Notes: generated by a model not told the origin, from the sequence alone. Counted from the stretch's first letter, positions 1 through 64,000 are shown. The stretch is 64,000 nt of DNA from Candidatus Multivoradales bacterium (GCA_965248925.1 CBDFLE010000005.1:1504001-1568000), one strand, 5' to 3'. Translations and numbers: made by a program.

Positions 1-964
1 CATGGGTGGCGGCCAGCGCCGCCACCACCTGCGCCGCGTCGGCATCGCTCACCGGTTGATCGGCAGCAACGATCCTCTCGACCACCGGCCGCAACTGCGA
101 GTCGCGCTCCAAGGCGAGAATCATCGGGTAGGTCATTTTGCCTTCCCGCAAGTCGGTGAACAACTCCTTGCCGGTGGTAGCGGCATCGCCGGTGAGGTCG
201 AGCAGGTCATCGATAGCCTGGAAGGCGACGCCGAGGTGCAAGCCATAGTCGCTCAACGCCGCCCGCTGTTCCCCCTCCAACCCACCGGCCAAGGCGCCCG
301 CCGACATTGCCCAGCGGAAGACTGACGCCGTCTTGCCTTCGACCACTCGGAAGTAGGACTCGCGCCCCAACCCGAACCGACCGCGGCTCTCGAGCTGAAT
401 CGACTCGGCGAAGATCATCTCCTCCACGGTGGCGAGGAGTTCGCTCAGCAGGCCCGGCAGACCACAGCGCTCGACCCGGCGCAAAGCTTCGATCAACACC
501 CAATCGCCAGCGAAGACCGAGGCCGCGTTGCTGTGTACCGCCCGCGCCGTCGGCGCGCCGCGGCGCACATCGCTGTGATCGACCACATCGTCGTGCAACA
601 AAGTCGCTGAATGTACCAGCTCTACCGCCACCGCCAGATCCACCACTCGCGGATCGATGCCGCTACCGGCCCTGGCCGCCAGCGCCACGCACATTGGTCG
701 CAGCCTCTTGCCACCGAGGTCTAGCAAATGGCTGGCGGCCCGGCCCACCAACTGCGGGCGGCGCGGGAAGGTGGCCAGCTCGGCCTCGATCGAGGCCATG
801 TCGCGACCGATAAAGTGCGCCAAATCAGCTAGTTTTTCAGCCAGTGCCTCAAGGCCCTGGCCGACACAGATGCCCTCGAGCCGAGCCAGCAGCTCGACCT
901 CCGGCGCCAGCTCTACGGCCGGGACGGACAGCGCGACCGCCTTGGTCTCCACCGCCGCCTTCAC
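1..964 (-). CDS. Polyprenyl diphosphate synthase (IspB/CrtE-type trans-prenyltransferase), 3' end outside the window
   Basis: Not in the ORF track because it has no stop in the window. Manual translation from GTG 964 (GTGA overlap with the regulator's stop) gives GGKRLRP, ELVHSATLLHDDVVD..DVRRG (first DDxxD motif), GKTASVF, AFQAIDDLLD (second motif) and DLREGKMTYP. Confidence 0.92.
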   Translation of the reverse strand, partial: MKAAVETKAVALSVPAVELAPEVELLARLEGICVGQGLEALAEKLADLAHFIGRDMASIEAELATFPRRPQLVGRAASHLLDLGGKRLRPMCVALAARAGSGIDPRVVDLAVAVELVHSATLLHDDVVDHSDVRRGAPTARAVHSNAASVFAGDWVLIEALRRVERCGLPGLLSELLATVEEMIFAESIQLESRGRFGLGRESYFRVVEGKTASVFRWAMSAGALAGGLEGEQRAALSDYGLHLGVAFQAIDDLLDLTGDAATTGKELFTDLREGKMTYPMILALERDSQLRPVVERIVAADQPVSDADAAQVVAALAATH

Positions 965-4066: not shown

Positions 4067-6487
4067 TCACTTCTCATCCAGCAGCAGAGTGGGCTTCAAG
4101 CGCGCTACTCTCCGAGCCGGCAAAAACGACGCCAAGATACCCATCGCCAGGAGTAAGACCGCCCCCAGGAAAAATGCCGGGCCGTCGAGAGCACTAATGC
4201 CGTGAATCCAACCCTTCAAAAGACGGGTGACCGCCAAAGCCCCAAAGACGCCAAAAACTACACCCATGACAGCAAGCCACGCGCCTTCCCTAAAGACCAA
4301 GCTGACAACATCGCGCCGCGAGGCGCCAAAGGCCATTCGCACACCCATCTCGTGCCTTCGCAACGACACCGAGTACGACATCACGCCATAGATCCCAGCC
4401 AATGCCAAAATCACGGCAACCAAAGCAAACCGCCCCAGCAACTGAGCCATGATTCCCGTACCCGCAATATCATCCTGTAGAATCTCTTCCAAGGCCTTCA
4501 CTTCGTAGATCGGAATACCAGCTTGCGCGCCAGCAACCGCCGCTTGCACCGCGGTCGCCAAGCTCATTGGATCGCCCGACATGCTACGCACTGCGAAGGT
4601 CATATCCGTAGGCACTTCAGTGCGCTGCTGGTAGCTGAAGAAGATCGTCGGCAACACCGGATCCTCGAGCCCGCCTTGTTGGAAATCTGCCACCACACCG
4701 ACAACCCGCCAAGAATCCCCACCGAGGGTCAGCTGCAGCAGCAGAGGATCCTTGCCGCCGAAACTCAGTCTGGCCAAAGACTGGTTGACCACCACCGCTC
4801 TTTCGCCGGCAAAGGAATCTTGCGCCTCAATAGGACGGCCGTTGACTATCGGCGCTCTCAGCACTGAGAAGTAGTCCGGGCTAACAGTTAGGAAATCTGC
4901 GATCGGCTCACGGCCCGCCTGGGGCAATTCCCGGCCAGCTACAGCGTACCTGATTGCCGCCGCTGACTCGCCGGGCATGGCGTCGGCAAAAGCAAAGCCC
5001 TCAACTCCAGGAAGAACGCCAACACTATCGAGAATACTCTCATAGCGCCGCGAAAGAACCTCTCGGCGATCTTCTGGAGATTGGAGGCGCGCCGCATCCG
5101 ACATCGAAGTCTTGAAGGTCAAGATCCCCTCTGCCTCGAATCCAGGATAGGTCGTCTGGAGATACTGGAAGCTCCTGATCAAGAGCAAGGCCGCAACCAG
5201 CAGCACAAAAGACATGGTCATCTCTGCAACGACAAAGGCGCGCCGCAGCCACTTCTTCCGCCGGCTACCTTGCGATCGGCTATCTTGTTCCTTAACTAGA
5301 CCCGCCAGGTTCGGAGATCGCAGGAGTAGAACCGGAGCGAGGCCAAAAAAAGCGCCAGCGGAGAGCGACAACAGCACGGTAAAGAGCAAGATTCGGCCAT
5401 CCATGACGACGTTCTCCAACCGAGGAATGTCTGCCGGTACCACCGATTGGAGGTACTGCGTCCCCCAGCTTCCAAATACCAGCCCCAGCACGCCGCCCAT
5501 CACACATAACATCAGAGCCTCGCTCAAGGACAACCGAATCAACTCTCCTCGACCAGCCCCCAAAGACGTTCGCAGAGCAAACTCCTGCTGTTGGTCCACT
5601 GCCCGAGCCAACAACATACTAGAGATGTTGAAAACCGCGATCAGATGCACCGCCAGAACGGCAAGAATGAAGATCATTGCCACCAGATGAAAGTCCTCGC
5701 CGTAGATCTCCTGGTACAGGGAAAGTAGCCGGAACCCCCGATGTTCGTTGCTTCCAGGATAGGCCGCGGCGAGCCGCCCGGCGATACTCTTGAGTTCCTC
5801 GGCAACCTCCTCCTGACCACTATCTGGATGCAATCGGGCTATCACCGTCAGGGATTCTAGCTGTCGGTTATTGCGCTCTTCTTCACTCAAGTCGAGCGGA
5901 ACCCAGATCGCAGCATCGCGGGAAAGCACCTGGAATTCCGCAGGGATAACACCCACAACCTCATAGGCCGATCCATCGAGGTCTATGGTCAGGCCGGCCA
6001 GGCTGGAGGAACCCATCTGACTCTTCCAAAAACTCTCGCTCAGCATCGCCAAACGCTGTTTGGATCGCTCCTCCGCGCTGCTGAAGGTCCTACCGCGTAG
6101 CGCGTTGACATCGAATAGCGAAAAGAAGCTGGCACTCACCTCCAAACCCTTGACCCGCAGAGTCTGATCGCCGCCAACCAGATTGAATCCTCGCCCTCTC
6201 AAGGCGGTAGCCTCGAACCCCTGCGCTTGCTCGTCCAAATCAAGAAAGTCAAGCCAAGTCAGGGGGGAACGGTCCCAGTCGTAGTAGTCGTCGGTACCAT
6301 ATATGCGGTACAAGCTGGACGGATTTTCAAAGGGCAGTGGGTCGAGGACAAGTGGATCGAGAATGCTGAAGACCGCAGTGCTGGCACCGATACCGACAGC
6401 CAACACAAGAACAGCAATGGCGGCAAAGGCAGGATCCTTACGGAGCCTCCGTAGTGAGTATCGAAGATCTTGACCCAACGACATCAT
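4067..6487 (-). CDS. ADOP-type (acidobacterial duplicated orphan permease) MacB/FtsX-domain ABC permease
   Basis: 806 aa. QDLRYSLRRLRKDPAFAAIAVLVLAVGIGASTAVFS, a duplicated periplasmic plus FtsX layout, GIYGVMSYSVSLRRHEMGVRMAFGA and C-terminal LPARRVARLKP. RBS AAGGAG. Confidence 0.9.
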   Translation of the reverse strand: MMSLGQDLRYSLRRLRKDPAFAAIAVLVLAVGIGASTAVFSILDPLVLDPLPFENPSSLYRIYGTDDYYDWDRSPLTWLDFLDLDEQAQGFEATALRGRGFNLVGGDQTLRVKGLEVSASFFSLFDVNALRGRTFSSAEERSKQRLAMLSESFWKSQMGSSSLAGLTIDLDGSAYEVVGVIPAEFQVLSRDAAIWVPLDLSEEERNNRQLESLTVIARLHPDSGQEEVAEELKSIAGRLAAAYPGSNEHRGFRLLSLYQEIYGEDFHLVAMIFILAVLAVHLIAVFNISSMLLARAVDQQQEFALRTSLGAGRGELIRLSLSEALMLCVMGGVLGLVFGSWGTQYLQSVVPADIPRLENVVMDGRILLFTVLLSLSAGAFFGLAPVLLLRSPNLAGLVKEQDSRSQGSRRKKWLRRAFVVAEMTMSFVLLVAALLLIRSFQYLQTTYPGFEAEGILTFKTSMSDAARLQSPEDRREVLSRRYESILDSVGVLPGVEGFAFADAMPGESAAAIRYAVAGRELPQAGREPIADFLTVSPDYFSVLRAPIVNGRPIEAQDSFAGERAVVVNQSLARLSFGGKDPLLLQLTLGGDSWRVVGVVADFQQGGLEDPVLPTIFFSYQQRTEVPTDMTFAVRSMSGDPMSLATAVQAAVAGAQAGIPIYEVKALEEILQDDIAGTGIMAQLLGRFALVAVILALAGIYGVMSYSVSLRRHEMGVRMAFGASRRDVVSLVFREGAWLAVMGVVFGVFGALAVTRLLKGWIHGISALDGPAFFLGAVLLLAMGILASFLPARRVARLKPTLLLDEK

Positions 6488-6532
6488 GGCTTCTCCTTGT
6501 TGCGGTGCAAAACTCAGCTGCTGCTCGACAGG

Positions 6533-7579
6533 CTACACAGACCCGGGCAACGACCTCAAGAACTCTAGGACCTCTGGAACAGTAATACCGGTTCGTTCCG
6601 CCAACAGCTGATGAGTACTGTCGATGTGTTCGGCCAACTTGATCATTTCTGTGACGAAATCGTCCCGCTCTTTGAGCCGGGAGACGAAAAACTCCGGGGA
6701 ACCGACGATGAAGAGTAGCCGGATCAGGCCAGTGAGCACCTCAAAATAGTCGAACCCCTCGAGAAGAATGCCACCTTGGCGCGAGTACTCCGCGAAGATT
6801 GTCGCCCGCAGAGACTCCTCGTACGCACCCACTAGCAGCATGGTCCAGGCAAGGTCTTTCCGCGGATCACCAATCGTGGCGCCTCCCCAGTCGATGATAA
6901 CCGGAGGACCTGCGGCAGGTAGCAACACGTTACCAGGGTGAAAATCTCCGTGCACGATTCCCGGATGCTCGCAAGGAACGTCTTTGAGTCTTACTCCTAG
7001 CCAATTCCATACCGGTACGAATCCAGGCATGGCCAGTCTCTTTATATCGTTCAGTAAAGAAGGCATCAGCCCCAACAGATAGCCATAGGGGTCGCTTTCC
7101 TCCCACTGCATGAGCTCCTCCCTTGCCGCTTCCCACTCCGTTTGATGGATAGAGACGAACTCCTTACAGAACAATGACAGCAATTGCTCCTTGCCTTCCT
7201 CTGAAGCTGCATAGTAGGCAGCCTTCAGGGTTGTGCCATCCACTCTTTCCATCAAGATGACGGGGCGGGAAAACACCGAATCCGCCGTGCCGAGGGAGAT
7301 GGGTCTCGCAACCTGGAGACCAGCTTGTCTGACTGCAGAAGTGGTCTCGAACTCATTTCGTGCCATCTCGTCGGACTTGCCAACAAAGAGCTTGAGTACA
7401 TAGTGACTGACAGCCCGCTTTTTGCCACTGCCGGCTTCTACAGCGAATGAATAGATATCAGCTTCCATCCCGACAAACAGTTTCTCGAGATCATAGACCC
7501 GGCTGTTAGCACTGACCTTGAGGACGGTGCGCGCCAAGTCGGCAACCCCCTCTTGAATTGCTCGTTCTATAGCCACCAC
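6533..7579 (-). CDS. Aminoglycoside phosphotransferase (APH)-family kinase
   Basis: 348 aa. VLKLF lysine, Brenner motif HGDFHPGNV, IIDWGG and GDPRKDLA. GTG start with RBS AAGGGA, 14 bp after the exporter stop. Confidence 0.85.
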   Translation of the reverse strand: MVAIERAIQEGVADLARTVLKVSANSRVYDLEKLFVGMEADIYSFAVEAGSGKKRAVSHYVLKLFVGKSDEMARNEFETTSAVRQAGLQVARPISLGTADSVFSRPVILMERVDGTTLKAAYYAASEEGKEQLLSLFCKEFVSIHQTEWEAAREELMQWEESDPYGYLLGLMPSLLNDIKRLAMPGFVPVWNWLGVRLKDVPCEHPGIVHGDFHPGNVLLPAAGPPVIIDWGGATIGDPRKDLAWTMLLVGAYEESLRATIFAEYSRQGGILLEGFDYFEVLTGLIRLLFIVGSPEFFVSRLKERDDFVTEMIKLAEHIDSTHQLLAERTGITVPEVLEFLRSLPGSV

Positions 7580-7593
7580 GTTTCCCTTTCAAG

Positions 7594-9321
7594 TCAGACA
7601 GTACCGGCCTCCAGGCCACTTCGGTCCAAGCTAGGCAAATCCTCCACGTCACTCCTTCGAGCTACGGCAGCCCCTTGACTGATCGTATCTGAGACTAACT
7701 TGCCGTCTTCCAGCTTCACCATCCGATCACCCAAATGGTAGTAACGATCGTCGTGGCTAATTACGATGATTGTCTTACCCGCAGCCCTCAGATCTTGTAG
7801 CAGGTTCAGATAGAAGAACTCTTTGAACTGCGGATCCTGGTCAGCAGCCCACTCGTCAAAAATGTAAATCGGCCGATCTTCGAGATAGGCAGTCAACAGC
7901 ACTAGCCGCTTTCGCTGACCCTGAGAGAGCTTGACGGTGGAGAACCGACCGTCCTTGATCTCCACCTTATGATCCAACTGCAACTTTGCTAAATACTCGC
8001 GACAACGCTCGCTGGATGACTCGGTTTCTAAGCCCGCCAATCTTTCAAAGATGAAAAAATCTGAAAAAGTAACTGTGAACAGCTGTCGATACTGTTCGAT
8101 AGTATCCTCAGAGACAACCTTTCCACCGATCAGGACTTGACCGCTCTCGGGTCGGTAAAGGCCCGCCACAATCTTCGCCAAAGTAGTCTTGCCACTGCCA
8201 TTGCCGCCGATAACGAACAAGATCTCGCCTGGGTTCACTGTCAGATCAATCGGCCCAAGAGTAAAGTTATCGCCCTCCCTTTCGTGGTAGTAGTTGTGGG
8301 TGACTCCATCCAGACGAATGTCGCCAAACTCGCTCGCTCCGTTTCCCCTCAACGCCAGGGACGATGGCGGAAGTTCTAGTTCAAAGTTTCTCCGGAAACT
8401 GTTCAGATTAAGCCCGTAACCCTCGATCTTCTTCATCGACACCTTGGCATTGGCGAGTTCCGGAATCACATCCAGTATCTTGAGCACTGATTCTTTGGCG
8501 TACAGCAGCGTTAAAGTGAAAGCCGTCAACACACTTACTTCCAGATCAATAAAGCTGGCTGCGCCATAGAGCACGAAGCCGATGAATAAAAGAAACGATA
8601 TTTTTCCCCAACTCTTGACCAGATTGTAAGCATGGTGACCAGCGAAAGCCAGTCGCCGGTAGTTCTTGGCTGAACCCATGAGATCTTGAGAGAGAAAGCT
8701 TTGTCGACGCACCGCGTGGAGCTTCAGCTCCTTGAATCCACCGGAGATAGCCTTGAAGTTGTCGACCAGATCGTCCCAGTGCTCACGCGCCCGCCCCAAC
8801 AACCTCTCGGCTCTCTTCATTGGCACTTTGTAGGTCATGTAGAGCAAAATCATGAAAACCAGGAGGACCGCCACCGTGATGGGCGCGAGCAGATACAGGT
8901 AGACCAGGCACCCAGTGACAATGGCGATACTGACCATCAACTCAGGAATCTTGAGCAGAGTTCCACCGATAGCCGCGACATCCTGAGTCAGTACGGCGAA
9001 GACCCTGCTTTCGCCGATCTTCTCGTAGTCACGGCAGGGCAGCGCCAGGATCTGCTGGCAGAGGCTGACCCGCAAGTCAAATCCAGACCGACTGGTGAGG
9101 TAAAGGGTGGTGATACGCGACGCATAGCCGGTCAGAAAAACCAGCCCCAGAAGAAGGAAGAAACTCCAAGCGTTTGCTGGAACCCAGGCATCGTCAGCAC
9201 CAAGTTCAGCACTGATCAAACCCAGCAGTGCTGCATTGCTGGCGCCACCGAGCACGCTCAGAACGCCGATCAAGGCGAACAGTGGGGGAGAGTATCGAGC
9301 CAACATGAGCAGAAATTTCAC
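7594..9321 (-). CDS. Cyclic peptide export ABC transporter (SyrD/PvdE family, fused TMD+NBD)
   Basis: GFKELKLH, FTLGPIDL, Walker A GGNGSGKTT, signature LSQGQRKRL, FDEWAADQDPQFK and ISHDDRY. Start placed at GTG 9321, 7 nt after AAGGAG. Confidence 0.93.
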   Translation of the reverse strand: MKFLLMLARYSPPLFALIGVLSVLGGASNAALLGLISAELGADDAWVPANAWSFFLLLGLVFLTGYASRITTLYLTSRSGFDLRVSLCQQILALPCRDYEKIGESRVFAVLTQDVAAIGGTLLKIPELMVSIAIVTGCLVYLYLLAPITVAVLLVFMILLYMTYKVPMKRAERLLGRAREHWDDLVDNFKAISGGFKELKLHAVRRQSFLSQDLMGSAKNYRRLAFAGHHAYNLVKSWGKISFLLFIGFVLYGAASFIDLEVSVLTAFTLTLLYAKESVLKILDVIPELANAKVSMKKIEGYGLNLNSFRRNFELELPPSSLALRGNGASEFGDIRLDGVTHNYYHEREGDNFTLGPIDLTVNPGEILFVIGGNGSGKTTLAKIVAGLYRPESGQVLIGGKVVSEDTIEQYRQLFTVTFSDFFIFERLAGLETESSSERCREYLAKLQLDHKVEIKDGRFSTVKLSQGQRKRLVLLTAYLEDRPIYIFDEWAADQDPQFKEFFYLNLLQDLRAAGKTIIVISHDDRYYHLGDRMVKLEDGKLVSDTISQGAAVARRSDVEDLPSLDRSGLEAGTV

Positions 9322-9354
9322 GACCAAGCTCCTTCTACCGGTTGTTCTTGTTGT

Positions 9355-44861: not shown

Positions 44862-44883
44862 GCCTCGATCTCCGTGGTTTCGT

Positions 44884-59800: not shown

Positions 59801-62800
59801 CCACCGAGACCGCCGGTGATCAGATAAACACCACCCTGACGCAAACCTGCCAGCGCCGATTCTGCTGGCTCTACTGCGACCTGCTGGAATCGCTCCACCC
59901 AGCGTTCCTTGGCGCGGTAGGCAACCCTCTCTGGATGCCCGCCAGCTGCCCTGGCGGTGAGTTCCTCCACAGTCGAGTCGACCAGGAGTTGCAGCGCCGC
60001 GGCATCGTCCGGCGGTGGCTCCAGGTCGACGCTATGGCAGCTCAACCACGGCAGCTCCAGGGGAAGCACCCGGCACGGACCGGTCAGCAGCGCCTTCTCT
60101 GGCTGGCTCGCCGGGTCAGCCGGCAACCTGTGCAAGCCGCTCGAAACCACTGTCAGGTCAATATCCGCGGCATCTCGTACTCGGTCCACGGCCTGTGCCA
60201 AGAACAGCAAGCTGTAGAAGCTCAGCTCGATCTGCCTCTCGCGCGCCGCGGAATCCACGCCGCAGTGGTCGAAGTTCCACAGATGGACAATCTGCTGTGG
60301 AACCTGGTCCAGGGCAGCGAGCAACGAGCGATAGTCTTCGACTGCAGTGGGATCGATGGTCCAAACACCGTCGTCCGAGTTCGAAAACGCCGCCCCCGCC
60401 AGCACCCGATACACCCGGTGCCCGTCCCTCTCCAACCGCGCGGCGACGGCCTGGCCAAGACCTGCCCGATCGAGAAAAAACAGCCATGTACGCGCCTCGA
60501 CCTCTCCTCCGTCCGCACCTTCCGACGGACCCAGACACCACTGCGGAACCGTGAACCAATCCTCGAATTCGAGCCGCGGGTCGCTATCGTCAAACTTCTC
60601 CAAGAGCTGTGCTGCCGCGGAATCAGCGGCTCGCGGAGGACCAAACCAGAAGCTCTGGCGCTCAAAGGGGTAAGTCGGTAAGTCGACGAAAGATCGTTGC
60701 TCCCCGCGGTTGAACGCCCGCCAGTCGATTTCCACTCCGGCCAGCCACAGCTGACCGAGATTGTGCAAGAGGGCCGCTTGCGGCGCCAACTGACCGACCA
60801 CCAACGAGCAGAGAACTTGCGACTCGACACTCTGCCCAAGTTTCCGCGCCAGTCCGCTCAGCATGTCGTCCGGACCGATCTCCAACAGCAGCGCACCTTC
60901 CTCACCCGCCGCGTCACGCAGCACTGCGGTGCAGGATTCCACCGATGCCGAGCGGCTCCATAAATCGGAATTCTCCGCCTCCTCGAGATCGACCTGGCGC
61001 CCCGTCGCCAGCGACAGCAGTGGGATGCGGGGCACCAGCAACTCAATCTCAGCAGACTCCGCGAGACTCCTATCCACCAAGGCAGAGCCCACCGCCACTC
61101 GCAACAGAGCCTCTTCGAGAGTGAAAACACCGGCTAAGCAGGCGGCGACATCGAGACCCACTCCTACCCCGATCAACCGTCCTGGCTCGACCCCCCAAGC
61201 CATCCACATTCTGGCCAGTGAGTACTGAATCGAGAATTGCCTTGGCGCCGCCACCTGCGGTTTAGCAGTGGCCTTCAACCAATCAATGAGTTCTAGACCG
61301 GTGTGCGCACGCAGCAGGTCCCGACAATGATCCAGCTGGCGGCGGAAATAACCCTCGACCGAGTAGAGTTCAAGGACGGGTTCGAGCGATGCCAACTTTG
61401 AATCGGCGAACAAGAAGCTCACCGAGGGCTGGTGCGGGCTGACCGTAGAACTCAGAACGCGCTCGGCATCGCCCTCGCGGAGGGCTGCGGCGGCCTCCGC
61501 GGCGCCACGGCACAGCACCATACGTCGGCGGTCGAGAGCCTCGCGACCGAGCTGGGAAGTAAAGGCAACATCGGCAAGTTCGACTTCCGTACTCTCCAGG
61601 AAATCCGCCAGCTCAGCGCTCACCGCTGCCAGCGCGCTGCCGGTCTTTGCCGAACACAACAGCAACTGCCATAGGCGGGATTCCCCAGAGGGCGCCACGG
61701 CCGGCGGTTCCTCGAGGACCACATGGGCATTGGTACCGCCGAAACCGAAGGAGCTCACTCCGGCCAGCGCCGGCGGCGCATCTTCCCTGCCACCTAACTC
61801 CCATTCCTCAAGGCCATCGACCACCCGCAATGCCTGCCCGGCCAGCAAAGCGTTCGCGGTGTCAGGGTGAAAATGCAAGCTCGGCGGCACCCGTCGATGC
61901 TGAAAAGCGAGCACTACTTTGATCAGACCGGCGATGCCCGCCGCGGCCTCGAGATGGCCTAGATTGCTCTTTACCGAGCCGATAGCGCAGGGCTCGGCGT
62001 CCCTCCGATCCACTCCGACTACCGCTCCCAAAGCAGACAACTCGATAGAATCGCCAAGTTCGGTTCCGGTACCGTGAGTCTCAACATAATGCACCGCTGC
62101 TGGCGATACACCGGCCTGATTGTAGGCTTGGCGTAACACCTCCTCTTGAGCAAAACGATTGGGCGCCGTCAGACCATTACTGGCTCCATCCTGATTGACT
62201 GCCACGCCGCGAATCTGGGAGTAAATCCGATTGCCATCGGCGAGCGCACTACTTAGGGGCTTGAGCAGAACCAGGCCAACGCCCTCACTGCGAACGTAGC
62301 CATCGGCAGCCGCGGCGAACACCTTGCACCGGCCGTCGGCAGCCATCAATCCCGCTTTGCTAAAGACCATCGTCGTCTCTGGCAACAGGATCAGGTTGAC
62401 CCCTCCTGCCAGCGCCAGAGTCGACTCTCCGGAACGCAGGCTCTGGCAAGCCGCGTGAACCGCCACTAAAGACGATGAACACGCGGTGTCGAGAGCCAGG
62501 CTCGGCCCTTGAAAGTCAAACGAGTAAGAGATCCGGTTGGCAGCGATCGAGCCGGCGTTACCGGTCCCGACGTAGGCGTCAATCTGCGCTCGGTCGCGAA
62601 TCTGCAGCTGGCCGTAGTCGCTCGTCGCCAGGCCGACAAAGACCCCCGTTTTGGAACCGCGCAGCCGCCCCGGCGCCAACGCAGCATGCTCGAAAGTCTG
62701 CCAAGCGACCTCGAGCAACAACCGCTGCTGTGGATCCATGCGTTCGGCTTCGCGCGGCGAGATGCCGAAGAAGCGCGCGTCGAATAGATCCACGCGGTCG

Positions 62801-63366
62801 AGGAAGCCACCCCAGCAAGTGCTCATTTTGCCGGCGGCGGTCAAATCACGATCGAACAGCTGCTCCACCGGCCAACGATCAGCCGGCACTTCACCAATCG
62901 CGTCAATGCCGTCTCGTAACAGAGGCCAGAACTCGGTCAAATGCCCGGCGCCCGGAAACCTGCAACCCATGCCGATGATCGCTATCGGTTCGTCGGCATC
63001 TAGACTGGAGACCGCGACTCTCGGCGACGGTGCCGGGTCGTCGCTAGTAGCCAGTTGCACCGCCAAGTGTCCTGCCAACGCATCGATCGTCGGATGGTCG
63101 TAGAGCAGCGTCGCCTCCAGCCCCAGTCCCAACCATTCCTCGAGCTCTCCGGAGAGACCCACCGTCTCGCGAGAGGCCAAACCGTAGCTGGAAAAAGGCT
63201 CTCGGACATCGACCTCCTGCGCCGTGCAGCCCAAGATTTCCGCCACACGATGGGCCAGCCAGAGCCGAAGCTCCGAGGCACTCGGAACGCCCCCCTGCCG
63301 GCCCGCGCCAGCGGGCGAATCCACCCCAGCATCAGACTTGGCTCCTCGCTTACCTTTCCTAGCCAT
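44884..63366 (-). CDS. Type I modular PKS: loading ACP plus modules 1-4 (KS-AT0-KR-ACP x2, KS-AT-KR-ACP x2)
   Basis: 6160 aa. N-terminal ACP (YGLASR); KS1 DTACSSS, KS2 QTHCSTS, KS3/4 QTFCSTS. AT1 (GVGVG) and AT2 (GQGLG) lack the serine; AT3 GYSLG/HAFH; AT4 GHSMG/HLIH. Four KR; ACPs GGNS, GGNS, GGTS, GGNS. No DH motif (HxxxGxxxxP) and no ER seen. 8-bp overlap with the FAAL. Confidence 0.96.
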   Translation of the reverse strand: MARKGKRGAKSDAGVDSPAGAGRQGGVPSASELRLWLAHRVAEILGCTAQEVDVREPFSSYGLASRETVGLSGELEEWLGLGLEATLLYDHPTIDALAGHLAVQLATSDDPAPSPRVAVSSLDADEPIAIIGMGCRFPGAGHLTEFWPLLRDGIDAIGEVPADRWPVEQLFDRDLTAAGKMSTCWGGFLDRVDLFDARFFGISPREAERMDPQQRLLLEVAWQTFEHAALAPGRLRGSKTGVFVGLATSDYGQLQIRDRAQIDAYVGTGNAGSIAANRISYSFDFQGPSLALDTACSSSLVAVHAACQSLRSGESTLALAGGVNLILLPETTMVFSKAGLMAADGRCKVFAAAADGYVRSEGVGLVLLKPLSSALADGNRIYSQIRGVAVNQDGASNGLTAPNRFAQEEVLRQAYNQAGVSPAAVHYVETHGTGTELGDSIELSALGAVVGVDRRDAEPCAIGSVKSNLGHLEAAAGIAGLIKVVLAFQHRRVPPSLHFHPDTANALLAGQALRVVDGLEEWELGGREDAPPALAGVSSFGFGGTNAHVVLEEPPAVAPSGESRLWQLLLCSAKTGSALAAVSAELADFLESTEVELADVAFTSQLGREALDRRRMVLCRGAAEAAAALREGDAERVLSSTVSPHQPSVSFLFADSKLASLEPVLELYSVEGYFRRQLDHCRDLLRAHTGLELIDWLKATAKPQVAAPRQFSIQYSLARMWMAWGVEPGRLIGVGVGLDVAACLAGVFTLEEALLRVAVGSALVDRSLAESAEIELLVPRIPLLSLATGRQVDLEEAENSDLWSRSASVESCTAVLRDAAGEEGALLLEIGPDDMLSGLARKLGQSVESQVLCSLVVGQLAPQAALLHNLGQLWLAGVEIDWRAFNRGEQRSFVDLPTYPFERQSFWFGPPRAADSAAAQLLEKFDDSDPRLEFEDWFTVPQWCLGPSEGADGGEVEARTWLFFLDRAGLGQAVAARLERDGHRVYRVLAGAAFSNSDDGVWTIDPTAVEDYRSLLAALDQVPQQIVHLWNFDHCGVDSAARERQIELSFYSLLFLAQAVDRVRDAADIDLTVVSSGLHRLPADPASQPEKALLTGPCRVLPLELPWLSCHSVDLEPPPDDAAALQLLVDSTVEELTARAAGGHPERVAYRAKERWVERFQQVAVEPAESALAGLRQGGVYLITGGLGGVGLGLAEELARSCAARIVLLGRSALPQRDTWQEVVEREAAAADGPEERIRKILAIEKLGSEVLILQADVADSLAMGRAIQQATERFGGIDGVFHAAGIPGAGLVRFKTRQMVARALAAKVQGTRVLEEVLASLELDFVVLFSSVIAVTGGGIGQLDYCAANAFLDAMAVNSDLPGRVLSINWGWWQWGLWDQSLAGFRPEFQTYLKTCRARYGVDFEQGMRALVWCLGQPEPQLIVSPRAFAIVQRDSRRATAANLFGLTAEPVSSPGLAAGIHPRPELSTRHVPPASELEQQISEIWRRGLGLDRVGRNDNFFDLGGNSLIGQQLTLELASTLGLKIDEVSLYEAPTVATLAQVLSRGSEPREAPTQDVDGVHRGGYQHEDIAIVGMAGRFPGARSSQQLWQLLVEGREGISTFSDPELLAAGVAPELIAQDNYVKSRPVLDDVDLFDASFFDFTPSEARLTDPQQRLFLECSWEALEDAGQDPEQFGGAIGVFAGTNISTYWLSQLADPEMADMATVLSTVISNDKDSLSTRTAYKLDLRGPAVSVQTHCSTSLVAVHMARQSLLSGDSDLVLAGGSAIRVPVRVGYLYQEGGTDSADGHTRSFDAAARGTPLGDGVAVVALKRLSDARRDGNQIYAVIKGSAINNDGSLKVGFHAPSVDGQAAVVAAALAEAGVEAESVSYVEAHGTATPLGDPIEFAALTKAFRQTTKRLGFCGIGSAKSNLGHLDKASGVTGLIKTALALRHRRIPATLHFERPNPKLHLSASPFFVVSELTEWESVSGPRRAGVNSLGMGGTNVHVVLEEAPSEAPSGPARQWQLLLVSARTDSALATVCDNLCGYLEENPSSSLADVAYTLMLGRRAMEHRRLVVADQAGQAVSSLRRGDSEQIRSRHHDEAPASVTFQFTDLTAGADLWGEECYRREKVYREVVDQCAERFGFELGPDRELESAPPWLAAALLFANQLALGRQLLSWGIRPSALQGQGLGEAAAACLAGVLSLGDAADLVGRRARELAQVASVTPNGVAPGESLTESLGAPAIPLLSPSGIRLSAQEVTDPAYWRRWMSRPLDCPDATEQEADDRYRLLLEIGVGQQLDGGSDLSATAECNLAVLGFESTTGSGEQLDEIARLLRTVGELWLRGVDIDGAAFFAAQQRRRLALPTYPFERQSYWVESSAGPSAPDVPAELKVYLAEAPAAFDDWLYSPQWRPQPLPLLAADPLSDKADPWLLLVDSGGLGAALAARLEQLGQVVWVVEVGAEFVRHNDRSWTLRPAELEDFRQLLADLDAAPRRIVHLWSLAVEEVANSIPEDCLVDQLEYGFYSLLACIQGLGELRDATEIELTVVSSGIHRITGEEVLHPQSATLLGPCRVAPLELPLLRCRSLDLDLHGAAGEASWSQSGELRALLDELMAEPLETAEQGGHTVAAYRQGERWVETFVPLPAPEEVVTPLRQGGVYLITGGLGGLGLGLAEHLVRHFAAKLVLVSRTRPGQVADRLERLQELEDLGAEVLVLVADVTVEVELRRAVEQALEHFGKIDGVVHAAGVPGAGLAQLKTREMAAQVLAPKIQGSWVLDRVFADHQLDFMALFSSVVALTGGGPGQVDYCAANAFLDAFAAQRSARGQRTIAIDWNEWQWDAWQEGLTDFAPQMRNFFAASRQRFGIDFDRGGRAFERALAQAEARIVVTPRRLPTLFELGRKFTLDNLLRGFGVVAAPARTGDTPPPDLSVEELERRVAEILQRLLGVEQVGVDDNFFDLGGNSLLGLQVTAELKQVVGRDVPATLLYEAPTASTLARALAPAAVAAGGAKPRLAVRRRRATGPEVESHIAIIGMAGRFPGARNTTELWRNLQQGVESVTFFSDEELRAAGVEEALLRDPTYVKAGAVLEDIDRFDAELFGYSPREAELMDPQHRFFLEAAWEALENAGYDSQQYGGAIGVFGGSNISTYLLNQIISDPQTAAAVDPMQAGIVNSADSLTTKVSYKLGLTGPSIAVQTFCSTSAVANHLACRSLARGDCDLALAGGVRIAVPHRVGYQWQTGSIDSPDGHTRAFDAAGQGAVVGNAVALLVLKRLDEAQADGDQIYAVIRGTAMNNDGSLKVGYTAPSVDTQAQVIAAAMVEAGVEPATLSYVEAHGTGTELGDPIEVAALSKAFADVGREFSCALGSVKTNMGHLDRAAGATSLIKTALALHHSQIPASLHFKRPNPETRLAESPFCVNTELTPWPAGEAPRRAGVNALGIGGTNVHFVLEEAPPAAPASPSRAAQLVVLSAKTEAALEQLTDRLAEHLQQHPEAEVADFTHTLQRGRRLLPHRRVLVGKSVEDLGSALAQRDPQRLFSYFDQSTNRSVAFLFPGLGDQYVGMAQGLYDSEPTFRRHLDLCAEKLVPWLDHGLLELLFPAAQQGGGEAAKPDLRSLLRGGVPSDDASRLLNRTANVHPAIFAVEYSLAQLLIEWVGEPQAMAGYSLGEYTAACLSGVLSLDAALELVTLRAQMIDQLPPGGMLAVPLSRREVEPLLGSELSLAAVNGPAMSVLAGSEAAIAALAEHLTAKEVACRRLATSHAFHSYMMEPIVEPFTRLLEKTELRRPRIPFVSNVTGRWILDEEAMDPAYWAHHLCRPVLFHDCLQKLIDGGDRVLVEVGPGQSLGSMVKQHPAYSPQTAQPVLATLPAAFLRQPDQDLLLRTLGKLWLAGVRIDWTAFYRYEKRRRVPLPTYPFADQRFWIGPEQGRLRTAAVEVKGDPEEWFYRPIWRPTDLSPSDPSNSGEEPAAATSWLLLADALSVGRCLAERLTSAGHRVTTVVAGAAFERQSASEFVLDPGQADQYQDLLKTLHNEDRLPSRVVDLWSLSGSEAVRSSPFEETQERGFYSLIHLVRAFCEVAATRPWAIDVVANGLWSVAGTEKLWPEKATLLGPCKVIPQEYPQVACRVIDLEVTDSVTEAESLSERLRDELAADLPDRMVALRASGRWVQDFESAPLASPEGLDKLRREGVYLITGGLGGIGFVLAEYLARELDAKLILTGRSELPARDSWAEYVDNAGIADELAHKIRRLQRLEELGAEVLVLAADVADPERMQQVVEQAEERFGTIDGLLHAAGLVRPEAFGLLAEISREKCVAHFRPKVQGLWVLEQVLADRKLDFRLLFSSTSAVLGGLTMGAYASANLFMDAFAEQRNRRSPGRWTTVNWDIWEVHGDELRELREHGSEADLGEFRMMLSEEGRGMTAEQGIEAFRRVLASSATHLVHSPSDLGTRLEQWIEHRAVVETVSPSLYARPNLQTPFVAAQSFGERRIAEIFQRILGVEEVGLHDNYFDLGGTSLTAIQVTVALQEEFGGQISPNLLFAAPSVSELAKRLLPQTAEQPTAALAAAVERRRQRPSTDGRQEIAIIGMAGRFPGARDVEEFWSNLEAGVETLSIFSDEELLAAGVPEEEFKDPNYVRVRPVLDGVELFDSAFFGFSPREAELMDPQHRVFLETAWTALEHAGYDAQRYAGAISLFAGSNISTYLLGMLGSPEFMDSVSELETAITNDRDSLTTRVSYKLNLRGPSMAVQTFCSTSLVATHLGAQSLLTGESDIALAGGVSIRVPQKVGYRFDPGGQDSPDGHTRSFDAKAQGTVFGDGVGVVVMKRLADALADRDTIHAVIKGSAINNDGSLKIGYTAPSIEGQAEAIAMALDHAGVRAESIGYVEAHGSATDLGDPVEAAALTKAFRLGTEACGFCAIGSVKSNFGHLDRAAGVAGLIKTVLALREEVLPPTLHFEEPNPKIELAASPFFVNNKRLEWKSNGRPRRAGVNSLGVGGTNVHVVLEEAPQRQPSGVSRAWQLLPISARTVAARDTASSSLASLLLRESMGSTAKSPLPDVAFTLQMGRREFEQRRFAVTRDAEEAVAQLAAPDADGVSCGRARKMPPRVVFLFPTGDHYLDMSAGLYQQEAVFRQEVDRCAELLEDELDGIDLRQLLFSGMPADAVARTKSPPSLRHLLGRGGGERDEAAGPLNELRFSQPATFVVEYALARLLMSWGILPQALIGHSMGEYVAACLAGVFSLEGALRLVARRSRLMQERMPAGGILAVPLPEEEVLELLSDELSLAAVNAPSVSLVSGPKAALDALQQKLESRDLICQRLAANHLIHSPLLAEIGDEVRELLREAQLAPPQIPFVSNLTGTWIEPAQATDPEYWIRHMCETVRFADGVRTLLEEPEAALIEVGPGQGLCSFVKLHPECRRGHPRVIAPTLRPAHETRPDQAFLLDTVGRLWAVGVGIDWSGFSAGEERHRLPLPTYPFERQRFWIEPLSLRQIQAGGAALAGAEESAEEGAVSLDKFDKNPEPSQWFFVPVWNQTVPSFSVSSGQGHADAAAVEGGSCLVLGGEKGLGSRLVERLVQGGLQVTQVTLAESFTRLGRGTYALDPCQQDQIRQLLAEMKSDQRLPDRVIHLWSLSDEAGAQADEIEAALDRGFYPLISLAQAMGDICADRALRLAVVSDGLQSVTGEENLRVEVSPLIGPCRVIPQEYPQTTCHSIDVVLPPADSPQEGELLEQLFAELAGSAGETMIALRGGRRWVQEFEPLELPAGVGQTPLRREGVYLITGGLGGIGLAVARHLFATRGARLALLSRSGLPTRETWAEQLEVEGSVADKIHQVMALEEAGAEVLVLTADVADRRQMQRAVDQTLEAFGTLNGVFHTAGVPAAGLMQLSTREAAAAVLTPKVQGTLVLAQVTAQLPLDFMLLFSSMNSATGGGPGQVDYSAANAFLDAFAVARSQAGQRVLALDWGEWQWDAWQEGLMGFDPLIQAFFKKNRRKFGVSFEEGMTAIERTLSVPVPRVVVSTVDFRVMLRLSRHFNVATILEAVRADQGERPFHPRPLLGVSFVAPASKLEQQIAGIWRQLLRLEEIGVHDSFFELGGNSLLGVDLTRIMKDALRVEIPMYALYESSTVRAMTEFVEQSGDQSEHLDQRRERGASRRQRAQQQRRRGRTQRGPQA

Positions 63367-64000
63367 GAGCTGACCTTCCCTTCCGATCGTTGCCCACAGG
63401 TCCTTGAGACCCAGCGACCGTCGTCACCGTTCCGTCAAGGAACTGGCGGCGGCAGACTTGGCGACAGACTTTGCCACTGGTGGTCTTGGCGAGACCTCTG
63501 GGGGGCAACAGACAAATCCGCTGCACCCGCACACCAAACGCCTCTGACACTGTCCGGCGGATCACGGCGCAAATGGCGTCAGCGTCTACCTCAGATCTTC
63601 GGCCCATCACTTCAGCCATCAGAATTAGCTTCTCCTGACGCCTCTCAGGAATAGAAAACGCGACGCAACAACCAGATCGGACAGAGGGATGGCAGCGCTC
63701 CACCAAGCGTTCAATGTCTTGGGGAAAATGATTGCGTCCATCGATGATGATCAAGTCCTTGATGCGTCCTGTAATGAACAACTCACCTTCCTTGAGGAAG
63801 CCACAATCGCCGGTGCGCAGAAAAGGGCCCGCCGCGGATCCCGCCAGCCGTGCGCCAAAGCTCTCGCGCGTCTCCTGCGGCAAATTCCAATAGCCCTGTG
63901 CAACACTGCCTCCGGCGAGCCAAATCTCACCCGGCCGGTCTTCCGCACAGCGCCTCGAAGCGGCATCGACAATGGCTACCTCGAGCCCAGATCCAAGCCG
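63359..64000 (-). CDS. Fatty acyl-AMP ligase (FAAL), C-terminal part; 5' end outside the window
   Basis: The frame is open from base 64000: EVAIVD...GEIWLAGGSVAQGYWN...FLRTGDCGF...LFITGRIKDLIIIDGRNHFPQDIE...VAFSI...KTTSGKV. It sits directly upstream of an ACP-initiated PKS. Confidence 0.9.
   Translation of the reverse strand, partial: RLGSGLEVAIVDAASRRCAEDRPGEIWLAGGSVAQGYWNLPQETRESFGARLAGSAAGPFLRTGDCGFLKEGELFITGRIKDLIIIDGRNHFPQDIERLVERCHPSVRSGCCVAFSIPERRQEKLILMAEVMGRRSEVDADAICAVIRRTVSEAFGVRVQRICLLPPRGLAKTTSGKVCRQVCRRQFLDGTVTTVAGSQGPVGNDRKGRSAHG

What the first reader, a model, noticed from the sequence alone, without database searches (positions are those of the whole stretch)
4067..64000. 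Apparently uncharacterised FAAL / 7-module KR-only PKS / 6-module NRPS line for a polyol-lipopeptide
Seen: a FAAL, a loading ACP, seven consecutive KS-AT-KR-ACP modules with no DH, ER or aminotransferase, one O-MT, then six C-A-T modules and a TE. Established: FAAL-ACP primes with a fatty acid and KR-only modules leave beta-hydroxyls. Inference: the product is an acyl chain extended by up to 14 carbons carrying about 7 oxygens (one probably methylated), amide-linked to X-Dab-Val/Ala-Ile-Val/Ala-Pro. The FAAL-PKS-NRPS lipopeptides I know (puwainaphycin, occidiofungin, mycosubtilin) have far fewer PKS modules and build a beta-amino acid with an aminotransferase. A lipid-polyol-cationic peptide amphiphile could be a new membrane-active scaffold.
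Basis: partly seen in the sequence, partly recalled or inferred. Interest (0 to 1): 0.9.

Follow-up and report, generated by a model that had tools for sequence, protein, structure and literature searches.

The report
Orphan fatty-acid-primed polyol lipopeptide gene cluster
A roughly 65-kb gene cluster encodes an assembly line that should join a fatty acid, a long many-hydroxyl chain and six amino acids into a lipopeptide with no characterised close relative.

Summary
The cluster is real and largely as described. All genes lie on the minus strand. They are a FAAL (only its last 213 aa are in the window), a loading ACP, seven KS-x-KR-ACP modules with no DH, ER or aminotransferase, one in-line methyltransferase, six C-A-T modules, a TE, an ABC exporter, a kinase and a permease.

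Three corrections matter:
- The AT domains of modules 1 and 2 are dead. They lack the active-site serine and about 70-100 aa, and no discrete AT lies in the cluster.
[quoted passage not shown] This is a "glycolate" extender cassette that lacks the usual acyl-CoA dehydrogenase.
- AT4, AT5 and AT6 carry specificity motifs (HLIH, RAVH, IAAH) that are unique among 233 family ATs. AT6 plus the FkbM-type MT is orthologous to AT-MT-ACP units, and the MT is 49% identical to the MT of a Sorangium protein a source names putative methoxymalonyl-CoA synthase.

The chain may therefore carry more oxygens than seven. The nearest proteins in 5.8 billion are at most 50% (PKS) and 46% (NRPS) identical.

Verdict: an orphan cluster and a new variant of a known kind, of moderate interest.

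The parts
63359..64000 (-). FAAL gene, C-terminal 213 aa. The full 628-aa gene continues to window-equivalent 65245 (= L001 4359-6245).
   Evidence: Pfam AMP-binding 206.5 bits plus AMP-dom_DIP2-like. The best NCBIfam models are all fatty-acid--AMP ligases, but below their cut-offs (PRK05850 448 bits against 775).
44884..63366 (-). PKS-A (6160 aa from the longest ORF): loading ACP, then modules 1-4, each KS-(AT or dead AT)-KR-ACP.
   Evidence: Pfam tiles. Active-site alignments.
60427..61473 (-). Degenerate AT of module 1 (AT0-1): GVGVG in place of GxSxG, with the small-subdomain and YASH region deleted.
   Evidence: Best solved relative is ZmaA-AT 4QBU, E 8.9e-27.
56083..57150 (-). Degenerate AT of module 2 (AT0-2): GQGLG in place of GxSxG, with the same kind of deletion.
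29739..45008 (-). PKS-B (5089 aa from the longest ORF; the database version has 5040 aa): modules 5-7. Module 6 is KS-AT-MT-KR-ACP.
   Evidence: Pfam tiles. One search lists the window's own protein, P0001.
36522..38657 (-). AT6 (GYSLG / IAAH) and the FkbM-family methyltransferase of module 6. This is the candidate in-line methoxymalonate unit.
   Evidence: Pfam PF05050 61.8 bits. TIGR01444 102.6 bits against a cut-off of 37.7. AT6 is 60-61% and the MT 73-75% identical to the AT-MT-ACP units of P0042 and P0243. The MT is 48.6% identical to the MT of P0414, which one source names putative methoxymalonyl-CoA synthase.
9355..29742 (-). NRPS (6795 aa): TubC_N docking domain, six C-A-T modules and a TE (GWSMG). 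Its ATG overlaps the stop codon of PKS-B (ATGA).
   Evidence: Pfam tiles. A-domain codes. C and TE motifs.
14000..16800 (-). About 2.8 kb that recurs with 99-100% identity at 20363-23163, so NRPS modules 5 and 3 are near-identical. The modules repeat in tandem with a period of 3180-3183 nt.
   Evidence: A3 and A5 are 99.8% identical and C3 and C5 99.6%.
7594..9327 (-). ABC exporter of the cyclic-peptide-transporter type.
   Evidence: TIGR01194 435.8 bits against a cut-off of 286.2. Pfam ABC_tran and ABC_membrane.
6533..7579 (-). APH-family phosphotransferase (348 aa). It may confer self-resistance or phosphorylate the product.
   Evidence: Pfam APH 96.8 bits. Only weak NCBIfam hits to macrolide and aminoglycoside kinases.
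4067..6487 (-). ADOP-family duplicated MacB/FtsX permease. This is the probable cluster edge.
   Evidence: TIGR03434 738.5 bits against a cut-off of 622.3.

Best explanation
This is an intact, uncharacterised hybrid assembly line for a lipid-polyol-hexapeptide.

Shown from domains:
- A FAAL loads a fatty acid on the N-terminal ACP of PKS-A.
- Seven KS modules each add two carbons, and each has a complete KR and no DH or ER. Every beta-keto group should therefore stay as a hydroxyl, at C3, C5, C7, C9, C11, C13 and C15 of the finished acyl chain.
- A C domain behind a TubC-type docking domain then attaches six amino acids: X, Dab-like, Val-like, Ile, Val-like and Pro-like.
- There are no epimerisation domains, so all residues are probably L.
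- A type I TE releases the product, and a cyclic-peptide-type ABC exporter removes it.

Inferred:
1. Modules 1 and 2 have dead ATs, so they must be malonylated in trans, by a neighbouring AT, by FabD or by the genome's other discrete AT.
2. AT3 and AT7 (HAFH) load malonate.
3. AT6, and probably AT4, load a glycerate-derived hydroxymalonyl unit made by the adjacent FkbH/ACP/3-hydroxyacyl-CoA-dehydrogenase cassette.
4. The FkbM-type MT fused behind AT6 methylates that unit's alpha-hydroxyl. This would give extra oxygens at C4 (OMe) and C8 (OH).
5. Release is probably by macrocyclisation.
For: Domain order and intact active sites.

Dead ATs.

The cluster holds no discrete AT. The genome has only two free-standing candidates, a 321-aa frame and an 813-aa frame on contig C6.

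FkbH cassette:
- FkbH is the only copy in the genome (1 match, 263.7 bits against a cut-off of 146.65).
- It sits about 2.3 kb from the FAAL start with an 82-aa ACP and a 3HCDH.
- In 2 of 4 relatives' FkbH loci examined (G008:C36 and G033:C5), the cassette likewise abuts a FAAL-led line of KR-only modules, including a dead-AT module, then NRPS and TE.
- The same ACAD-less three-gene form recurs in G012.

AT specificity:
- 217 of 233 family ATs have xAFH. HLIH, RAVH and IAAH each occur once, only in this cluster.
- None of the five has the Gln after the serine that marks methylmalonyl ATs (rule from PMC4207774, passages read).
- ZmaA-AT, which is hydroxymalonyl-ACP specific, is the best solved match for all five. 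Its margin over malonyl-specific CurL is 78-105 bits for AT4-6 against 32-55 bits for AT3 and AT7.
- In the AT tree, AT6 is sister to the AT of an AT-MT-ACP unit in P0042, and AT4 joins them with support 0.907. P0042 shows no KR in my domain scan or in its precomputed Pfam list.

Methyltransferase:
- The AT-ACP-MT(PF05050) family includes a Sorangium protein that one source names putative methoxymalonyl-CoA synthase (P0414), and a Haliangium member.
- HliQ (AT-ACP-O-MT) is assigned to the methoxymalonyl-ACP cassette in PMC4768178 (passages).
- This cluster's MT is 48.6% identical to the P0414 MT.
- 49 of the 143 top representatives I scanned of the 150 listed carry this MT, many as 740-920-aa AT-carrier-MT or MT-AT-carrier proteins.

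Peptide: codes. DAFFLGVTFK = Ile, with Val as a minor product, in PMC2533009 Table 1.

Orphan status: the best non-self matches are 48-50% (59% over the MT part) for PKS-B and at most 46% for the NRPS. The cluster's own proteins are singletons. No orthologue was found in 40 related genomes.
Against: - The acyl-CoA-dehydrogenase step needed to reach hydroxymalonyl-ACP has no gene within 20 kb on either side. The best candidate, 59% identical to G008's cassette ACAD, lies on another contig among unrelated genes.
- In G008 and G033 every live AT is HAFH or HPFH although an FkbH cassette is present. Motif deviation is therefore not required for cassette use, and the cassette could serve another step.
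- The carrier-recognition (RXR/MXW) motif does not separate AT4-6 from AT3 and AT7.
- The SorC-like ATs are closer to AT7 (51%) than to AT6 (45%).
- An MT placed between AT and KR is also where beta-O-methylating PKS MTs sit (recalled).
- The HLIH, RAVH and IAAH motifs differ from each other, which could equally mean relaxed constraint.
- Dab, Val and Pro rest on recalled codes, and no specificity predictor was run.
- Nothing shows that the cluster is expressed.
Confidence: 0.6

Rival explanations
1. A plain malonate-only line. All seven modules use malonyl-CoA and the MT methylates the beta-hydroxyl made by KR6, giving a simple 1,3-polyol with one methoxy group. The FkbH cassette belongs to another pathway or supplies something else, such as a glyceryl acceptor or starter.
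For: - The MT lies between AT and KR, the usual place for beta-O-methylating PKS MTs (placement rule recalled).
- The cassette lacks the ACAD.
- FkbH-linked relatives have only HAFH or HPFH ATs.
- In G024 the cassette lies among glycosyltransferase and lipid genes, with no PKS in the 17 kb read.
- All five live ATs have a bulky hydrophobic residue after the serine, which fits malonyl as well.
Against: - The genome's single FkbH sits beside the FAAL.
- Three unique non-xAFH motifs fall exactly in modules 4-6.
- AT6 and the MT travel together as an AT-MT-ACP unit in P0042, which shows no KR and so makes no beta-hydroxyl to methylate.
- The MT family is the one found in the SorC-like and HliQ proteins.
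- The MT profile finds no solved PKS O-MT. The best hit, at E 0.0055, is an unrelated protein.
Confidence: 0.25
2. A decaying or partly skipped cluster. The two dead ATs, the missing ACAD and the recent internal duplication are signs of erosion, so modules 1-2 are skipped or the line makes nothing.
For: - Dead ATs.
- No trans-AT in the cluster.
- ACAD absent.
- Singleton cluster with no orthologue in 40 relatives.
Against: - Three uninterrupted ORFs of 5089-6795 codons.
- All KS, KR and carrier catalytic residues are intact, including those of modules 1-2.
- Dead ATs are common in intact relatives: P0003, P0005, G004, G008 and G033.
- PMC4768178 notes an inactive AT with no complementary trans-AT in the hli cluster, which was expressed heterologously and gave haliangicin (figure legend and abstract).
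- The ACAD-less cassette recurs in G012.
Confidence: 0.1
3. The cluster for a compound that is already known but not represented in the databases and papers I could search.
For: MIBiG and antiSMASH could not be run. Subscription journals are mostly absent from the paper library.
Against: No protein above 50% (PKS) or 46% (NRPS) identity among 5.8 billion, including NCBI and UniRef named entries. Four literature searches gave no FAAL plus long polyol plus peptide compound.
Confidence: 0.05

Closest known systems
Mycosubtilin/iturin and puwainaphycin-type FAAL-PKS-NRPS lipopeptide lines. A same-family example is G004:C269 (FAAL-ACP-KS-AT0-ACP-AMT-C-A-T...).
   Same: FAAL and ACP priming, a first KS whose AT is non-functional, direct hand-over to NRPS modules, and a terminal TE (PMC4219810 seen as abstract only).
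   Different: Those lines have one PKS module and an aminotransferase that makes a beta-amino fatty acid. Here there is no aminotransferase, a KR stands in its place, and six further KR-only modules follow.
Zwittermicin A synthase (ZmaA) and its hydroxymalonyl-ACP pathway.
   Same: ZmaA-AT is the best solved match of all five live ATs and of AT0-1. Both use KS-AT-KR-ACP modules that give a polyol, and both have an FkbH-type cassette with an ACP and a 3HCDH.
   Different: - No FAAL in Zma (recalled).
- Zma has the ACAD (ZmaE, recalled) and aminomalonyl genes, and far fewer ketide units.
- ZmaA's motif is GAAH. Here the motifs are IAAH, HLIH and RAVH.
Methoxymalonyl-ACP cassettes of haliangicin (HliH-K, HliQ) and soraphen (SorC-type 'methoxymalonyl-CoA synthase').
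   Same: The FkbH, ACP and 3HCDH genes are shared. The MT is an FkbM-family (PF05050) MT next to an AT, 47-49% identical to the MTs of the Sorangium (P0414) and Haliangium (P0445) members.
   Different: There the AT-ACP-MT is a free-standing protein of about 860 aa and an ACAD is present. Here the AT-MT pair sits inside an elongation module between KS and KR, and no ACAD is linked.
Uncharacterised KR-only multimodular PKSs: P0005 (Thermoanaerobaculia MAG), P0003 and P0002 (metagenomes), P0004 (Idiomarina xiamenensis).
   Same: An N-terminal ACP followed by four or five KS-AT/AT0-KR-ACP modules, frequent dead ATs, and GYSxG/HAFH ATs. Identity is 44-49% per module.
   Different: None of these four shows an MT in my domain scan. 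Their genomic context could not be read, and no product is known for any of them.
Polyhydroxy beta-amino acid residues of cyanobacterial peptides (pahayokolide/tychonamide type).
   Same: A polyhydroxylated polyketide stretch joined to an NRPS peptide (PMC13252402, listing and abstract only).
   Different: That abstract speaks of beta-amino polyketide units. This cluster has no aminotransferase and has seven ketide extensions.

Membership tests
FAAL-primed hybrid PKS-NRPS lipopeptide line (mycosubtilin/puwainaphycin type) | Fatty acyl-AMP ligase with a dedicated loading carrier. | tested here: met
   FAAL of 628 aa: AMP-binding plus a DIP2-like C-terminal domain, with the best NCBIfam hits all FAALs though below their cut-offs. 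ACP at residues 36-101 of PKS-A.
FAAL-primed hybrid PKS-NRPS lipopeptide line (mycosubtilin/puwainaphycin type) | In-line aminotransferase that converts the beta-keto group to a beta-amino group. | tested here: not met
   No PF00202 hit in PKS-A, PKS-B or the NRPS. The relative G004:C269 does have it (184 bits).
FAAL-primed hybrid PKS-NRPS lipopeptide line (mycosubtilin/puwainaphycin type) | NRPS C-A-T modules ending in a TE. | tested here: met
   Six C-A-T modules and a TE with GWSMG.
Glycolate (hydroxy-/methoxymalonyl-ACP) extender pathway (FkbGHIJK, Zma, Hli) | [quoted passage not shown] | tested here: met
   TIGR01686 263.5 bits against 146.65. PP-binding 28.5 bits against 20.8 for the 82-aa ORF. 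3HCDH_N 170 bits. Single FkbH in the genome.
Glycolate (hydroxy-/methoxymalonyl-ACP) extender pathway (FkbGHIJK, Zma, Hli) | Linked acyl-CoA-dehydrogenase homologue (FkbI/HliI). | tested here: not met
   None within 20 kb on either side. It is present in the G008 and G024 cassettes and absent in G012. An unlinked candidate, 59% identical, lies on contig C6.
Glycolate (hydroxy-/methoxymalonyl-ACP) extender pathway (FkbGHIJK, Zma, Hli) | O-methyltransferase acting on hydroxymalonyl-ACP. | tested here: inconclusive
   There is no free MT gene. The in-line FkbM-family MT is 48.6% identical to the MT of the SorC-like P0414. Its substrate is not testable in silico.
Glycolate (hydroxy-/methoxymalonyl-ACP) extender pathway (FkbGHIJK, Zma, Hli) | AT that takes an ACP-bound extender (hydrophobic MXW-type carrier motif, non-HAFH/YASH pocket). 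| tested here: inconclusive
   The pocket motifs of AT4-6 deviate. The carrier motif is A/I/V-x-R/Q in AT3-6 alike, so it does not discriminate.
trans-AT PKS | AT-less modules served by a discrete AT encoded in the cluster. | tested here: not met
   Five modules have live cis-ATs. There is no free AT on contig C5.
In-line beta-O-methylating PKS O-MT (stigmatellin/curacin type; recalled) | MT placed between AT and KR. | tested here: met
   MT at residues 2638-2829 of PKS-B, between AT6 and KR6.
In-line beta-O-methylating PKS O-MT (stigmatellin/curacin type; recalled) | Sequence kinship with the solved PKS O-MT structures. | tested here: not met
   - phmmer found 0 PDB hits at E 0.01 or lower.
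- The best profile-search hit was E 0.0055, to an unrelated protein.
- Foldseek returned only generic class I MTs, TM about 0.4.
- That such O-MT entries are in the PDB is recalled.

The most novel reading that the evidence does not exclude
Module 6 is a fusion of an elongation module with an AT-MT unit whose MT belongs to the SorC/HliQ (methoxymalonate) family. Together with an ACAD-less FkbH/ACP/3HCDH cassette, it builds and methylates a glycolate extender in cis on the assembly line, and AT4 takes the unmethylated unit. The product would then be a fatty-acyl chain with an almost fully oxygenated C3-C9 stretch, amide-linked to a cationic hexapeptide. It would be made by a line in which two further modules have no AT of their own. 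That would be a lipopeptide scaffold I found no description of, and a way of supplying glycolate units that I likewise found undescribed.
Probability: 0.3. Interest if true: 0.65.

Novelty: new variant of a known kind. Interest (0 to 1): 0.5.

Why it matters
If it is expressed, the cluster should give a lipid-polyol-peptide amphiphile. This compound type does not appear in any of the paper searches I ran. The producer belongs to a PKS- and NRPS-rich lineage for which I found no characterised product (the lineage itself could not be named). The cluster also offers two testable enzymology questions: how AT-dead modules in a cis-AT line are loaded, and whether an FkbM-type MT fused behind an AT makes methoxymalonate in cis without the usual acyl-CoA dehydrogenase. 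Both bear on engineering oxygen-rich polyketides. It remains a prediction from sequence, and orphan clusters of this general class are common.

Tried and rejected
- **Tyr in GYSxG as a marker of ACP-linked extenders** (idea from Table 2 of PMC4207774): rejected. GYS with HAFH is the commonest type in this family, 160 of 233 ATs.
- **RXR/MXW carrier motif:** does not discriminate here.
- **Linking dead-AT modules specifically to the FkbH cassette:** dropped. Dead ATs are frequent in relatives whose context is unknown (P0003, P0005), and one occurs in the FkbH-free contig G004:C269.
- **Genome-contig scan with the MT region:** 1 locus only, a Longimicrobium MAG contig ending in MT-AT-ACP with no FkbH on its 7 kb.
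- **Metagenome-contig scan with AT6-MT:** 6 loci, none with the AT-MT pair and none with FkbH or 3HCDH.
- **MT against solved structures**, by sequence, profile and fold: nothing specific. The model had mean pLDDT 80.3.
- **Unlinked ACAD on contig C6:** its context is unrelated, so the result is inconclusive.
- **Text search for the 10-residue A-domain codes:** only DAFFLGVTFK was found.
- **KR stereochemistry:** the LDD motif is absent in 7 of 7 KRs and no A-type Trp is seen (rules recalled), so it is not assignable.
- **Organism:** not named by any tool. The best named relatives are Thermoanaerobaculia and Longimicrobiaceae MAGs and Myxococcota. An ADOP permease model scores above its cut-off, and that this model points to Acidobacteriota is my recollection.
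- **Supplementary files:** none were consulted. The haliangicin supplementary figures on the cassette may bear on the HliQ comparison.


Full report
**Layout**

The window is G000:C5:1504001-1568000. All cluster genes are on the minus strand. In order of transcription they are:
- a FAAL gene, of which only the last 213 codons (63359-64000) are in the window. Fetching the neighbouring DNA (L001) shows the whole 628-aa gene, with AMP-binding and DIP2-like domains. Its best NCBIfam matches are all fatty-acid--AMP ligases, though below their cut-offs.
- PKS-A, 44884-63366, 6160 aa.
- PKS-B, 29739-45008, 5089 aa.
- an NRPS, 9355-29742, 6795 aa, whose ATG overlaps the PKS-B stop codon.
- an ABC exporter of the cyclic-peptide type (TIGR01194, 435.8 bits against 286.2).
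- an APH-family kinase.
- an ADOP-family permease.

Lengths are those of the longest ORFs. The database versions of the same proteins are 6146, 5040 and 6763 aa. The TubC-type docking domain at residues 5-54 argues for the long NRPS start.

**Domains**

I tiled the three giant proteins through Pfam.
- PKS-A is ACP, then KS-AT*-KR-ACP twice, then KS-AT-KR-ACP twice.
- PKS-B is KS-AT-KR-ACP, KS-AT-MT(FkbM)-KR-ACP and KS-AT-KR-ACP.
- The NRPS is a docking domain, (C-A-T) x6 and a TE.
- No dehydratase, enoylreductase or aminotransferase family scored anywhere.
- The largest unassigned stretch between an AT and a KR is 176 aa.
- All 7 KS have Cys-His-His, all 7 KR have the GGLGG, Lys, Ser and Tyr positions, and all 8 carriers have the serine.

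**Dead ATs**

The AT-like regions of modules 1 and 2 score 28 and 27 bits against a Pfam cut-off of 32.7. Aligned with the other five, they read GVGVG and GQGLG at the GxSxG active site. They also lack some 70-100 residues, including the stretch that carries the YASH-type motif.

A genome-wide scan for the AT family gave 11 matches:
- the five live cluster ATs;
- the two remnants, both below the cut-off;
- a 321-aa frame (FabD-like);
- an 813-aa frame on contig C6, near a 19,437-aa open frame;
- two inside frames of about 2000 aa.

No discrete AT lies in or near the cluster, so modules 1-2 must be loaded in trans. Dead ATs are not peculiar to this cluster:
- G004:C269, the best match to the PKS-A N-terminus (48%), has FAAL-ACP-KS-AT0-ACP-aminotransferase-C-A-T....
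- The metagenomic KR-only PKSs P0003 and P0005 begin ACP-KS-AT0-KR-ACP and hold further dead ATs.
- A figure legend of the haliangicin paper notes an inactive AT with no complementary trans-AT in hli, a cluster that was expressed heterologously and gave haliangicin (PMC4768178, passages and abstract).

**Upstream cassette**

About 1 kb beyond the FAAL start, and divergently transcribed, lie three genes:
- a 3-hydroxyacyl-CoA dehydrogenase (L001 7231-8097);
- an 82-aa ACP (8208-8456, PP-binding 28.5 bits);
- FkbH (8517-9599; TIGR01686 263.5 bits against 146.65).

It is the only FkbH in the genome. By established knowledge of the Fkb, Zma and Hli pathways, these three proteins plus an acyl-CoA-dehydrogenase homologue turn a glycolytic intermediate into hydroxymalonyl-ACP (PMC4768178 Table 1 lists HliH/I/J/K). 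No such ACAD lies within 20 kb on either side.

FkbH occurs in 12 of the 41 genomes searched, G000 included. I read four of the relatives' loci:
- G008:C36 has the four-gene form with the ACAD.
- G024:C3 has 3HCDH, ACAD and FkbH; its ACP was not checked.
- G012:C409 has the same three-gene form as here.
- G033:C5 has a 382-aa ORF with no Pfam hit (at E up to 0.001) in the ACAD's place.

In G008 and G033 the cassette directly abuts a FAAL-led gene, followed by KR-only modules (one with a dead AT), NRPS modules and a TE. FkbH cassettes beside FAAL-led polyol-peptide lines therefore recur in this lineage. An ACAD 59% identical to G008's exists on contig C6 among unrelated genes, which settles nothing.

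**Which modules might use the cassette**

The five live ATs have these GxSxG and YASH-position motifs:
- AT3: GYSLG / HAFH
- AT4: GHSMG / HLIH
- AT5: GHSLG / RAVH
- AT6: GYSLG / IAAH
- AT7: GYSLG / HAFH

None has the Gln after the serine that marks methylmalonyl ATs. A bulky hydrophobic residue there fits malonyl-CoA as well as hydroxy- or methoxymalonyl-ACP (PMC4207774, passages).

All five have ZmaA-AT, the hydroxymalonyl-ACP-specific AT, as their best solved match. The scores are 226, 271, 240, 252 and 247 bits for AT3 to AT7. Malonyl-specific CurL scores 194, 193, 147, 147 and 192.

In a census of 233 ATs, 217 have xAFH, and HLIH, RAVH and IAAH occur once each. The census comprised 220 ATs from the proteins returned by my two searches (the window's own left out), 8 from G008 and G033, and the 5 here. 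The set is biased toward this family, since this cluster seeded it. It also shows that the Tyr of GYSxG is a clade trait, not a marker of ACP-linked substrates.

In a FastTree of the same set, AT6 is sister to the AT of an AT-MT-ACP unit at the end of P0042, and AT4 joins them with support 0.907. AT5 pairs with AT3. P0042 shows no KR in my scan or in its precomputed Pfam list.

**The methyltransferase**

It is FkbM-family (PF05050 61.8 bits; TIGR01444 102.6 against 37.7).

A whole-library search with AT6-MT listed 150 best representatives. I scanned 143 of them, and 49 carry this MT. Many are proteins of 740-920 aa arranged AT-carrier-MT or MT-AT-carrier.

A search with one of these (P0271) showed a family with exactly AT, PP-binding and PF05050. 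It includes a Sorangium cellulosum protein that one source names 'putative methoxymalonyl-CoA synthase', and a Haliangium ochraceum member. The haliangicin paper lists HliQ (861 aa, AT-ACP-O-MT, top hit that Sorangium protein) in the methoxymalonyl-ACP cassette.

Identities of this cluster's domains:
- MT: 48.6% to the Sorangium MT and 47.2% to the Haliangium MT.
- MT: 73-75% to the MTs of P0042 and P0243.
- AT6: 60-61% to the ATs preceding those MTs, against 49-53% for the other four ATs.

By sequence, profile and fold the MT has no specific solved relative. I could not tie it to the beta-O-methylating PKS MTs whose structures I recall as solved.

Taken together, the most coherent reading is that AT6 and the MT handle a hydroxymalonyl unit and methylate its alpha-hydroxyl, and that AT4 may take the same unit unmethylated.

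The counter-evidence is real:
- The ACAD is missing.
- FkbH-linked relatives have only HAFH or HPFH ATs.
- The SorC-like ATs are nearer to AT7 than to AT6.
- The carrier-recognition motif does not discriminate.
- An MT between AT and KR is also the classic beta-O-MT position.

I put this sub-claim at roughly even odds within the best explanation. About 0.3 goes to the fuller reading set out as the novel case.

**Peptide**

I read the 10-residue codes off the A-domain alignment using recalled Stachelhaus positions:
- A1: DSEIAGTVVK, no assignment. The Glu may hint at a basic side chain, which is speculation.
- A2: DIWEITADDK, Dab-like (recalled).
- A3 and A5: DVFFIGGTFK, Val-like (recalled).
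- A4: DAFFLGVTFK, which activates Ile, with Val as a minor product, in Planktothrix OciB/C (PMC2533009 Table 1).
- A6: DVQFFAHVVK, Pro-like (recalled).

C2-C6 have a single HHxxxDG and there is no E domain, so no D-residues are predicted. C1 reads HHILTDD.

Modules 3 and 5 are almost the same DNA: 14000-16800 against 20363-23163 is 99-100% identical. C4 is 98% identical to C3, while A4 has diverged to 83%. This points to a recent tandem module duplication or gene conversion, and it is worth checking against long reads.

**Novelty**

- The best non-self matches to PKS-B residues 2100-3400 are 48-50% identical over one module (59% over the MT part, P0042). EpoD is at 35%.
- The best matches to the first two NRPS modules are at most 46% identical: Archangium, Thermoanaerobaculia and Longimicrobiaceae.
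- The cluster's own proteins are singletons.
- In 40 related genomes every genome has KS matches, but none has an orthologue. The best are 55% over the ACP-KS part (query residues 17-626, G012) and 48% over 900 aa (G004).
- Four literature searches found no compound that combines a FAAL start, a long KR-only polyol and a peptide.
- MIBiG itself could not be queried.

**Verdict**

- The cluster is an orphan, a new variant of the FAAL-PKS-NRPS lipopeptide kind, with two mechanistic oddities worth testing.
- Interest is 0.5: it is a good discovery target, but it is one of many orphan clusters and rests on sequence alone.

Noticed in passing
L001 7137-7226 (window-equivalent 66137-66226, just outside the window): A perfect tandem octamer, (CAAGAGAG) x 11.2 with 100% matches, ends 4 nt before the GTG start of the 3-hydroxyacyl-CoA dehydrogenase gene that opens the FkbH cassette. 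It might be a slippage-prone switch or a ribosome-binding oddity.
   Followed up: partly
window 14000-16800 and 20363-23163: About 2.8 kb of 99-100% identical DNA occurs twice inside the NRPS gene (modules 5 and 3), within a 3180/3183-nt tandem module repeat. This is either a recent duplication or conversion, or a possible assembly hazard.
   Followed up: partly
G000:C6:381559-398130: A second giant synthase sits in the same genome. A KS match lies in a 19,437-aa open frame, and a discrete AT in an 813-aa frame lies about 14 kb away. It is possibly a trans-AT PKS.
   Followed up: no
G004:C269:24481-57693 (L015-L018): A single 11,070-aa ORF in a same-family genome: FAAL-ACP-KS-AT0-ACP-aminotransferase, then a C-A-T module, a KS-AT module and further C-A-T modules. 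This is the classic beta-amino lipopeptide start fused to the NRPS.
   Followed up: partly
PKS-A and PKS-B, window 29739-63366: KS2-KS7 carry a CSTS active-site motif, whereas KS1 has the usual CSSS. ACP1-ACP7 have the PCP-like GG(N/T/H)SL motif rather than the usual ACP motif. The seven KRs fall into two alternating sequence subtypes: modules 1, 2, 4 and 6 against 3, 5 and 7.
   Followed up: no
L002 13986-18031 (G000:C5:1596986-1601031): An MtrB/PioB-type outer-membrane porin (284 bits) lies next to a multihaem cytochrome with paired CXXCH motifs. This looks like an extracellular electron-transfer module.
   Followed up: no
L003 10889-19854 (G000:C5:1494889-1503854): A probable menaquinone operon lies just below the window. 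By Pfam family it holds a chorismate-binding enzyme, a TPP enzyme, a hydrolase, an enoyl-CoA hydratase, a UbiA prenyltransferase, an enolase-like protein, an AMP-ligase and a UbiE-type methyltransferase. A polyprenyl synthase lies at window 2-964.
   Followed up: no
L010 2-2572 (Longimicrobium MAG contig): A protein cut by the contig end finishes with MT(FkbM)-linker-AT-ACP, and is followed by ABC transporter and LytTR two-component genes. This is another arrangement of the AT, MT and carrier trio.
   Followed up: partly
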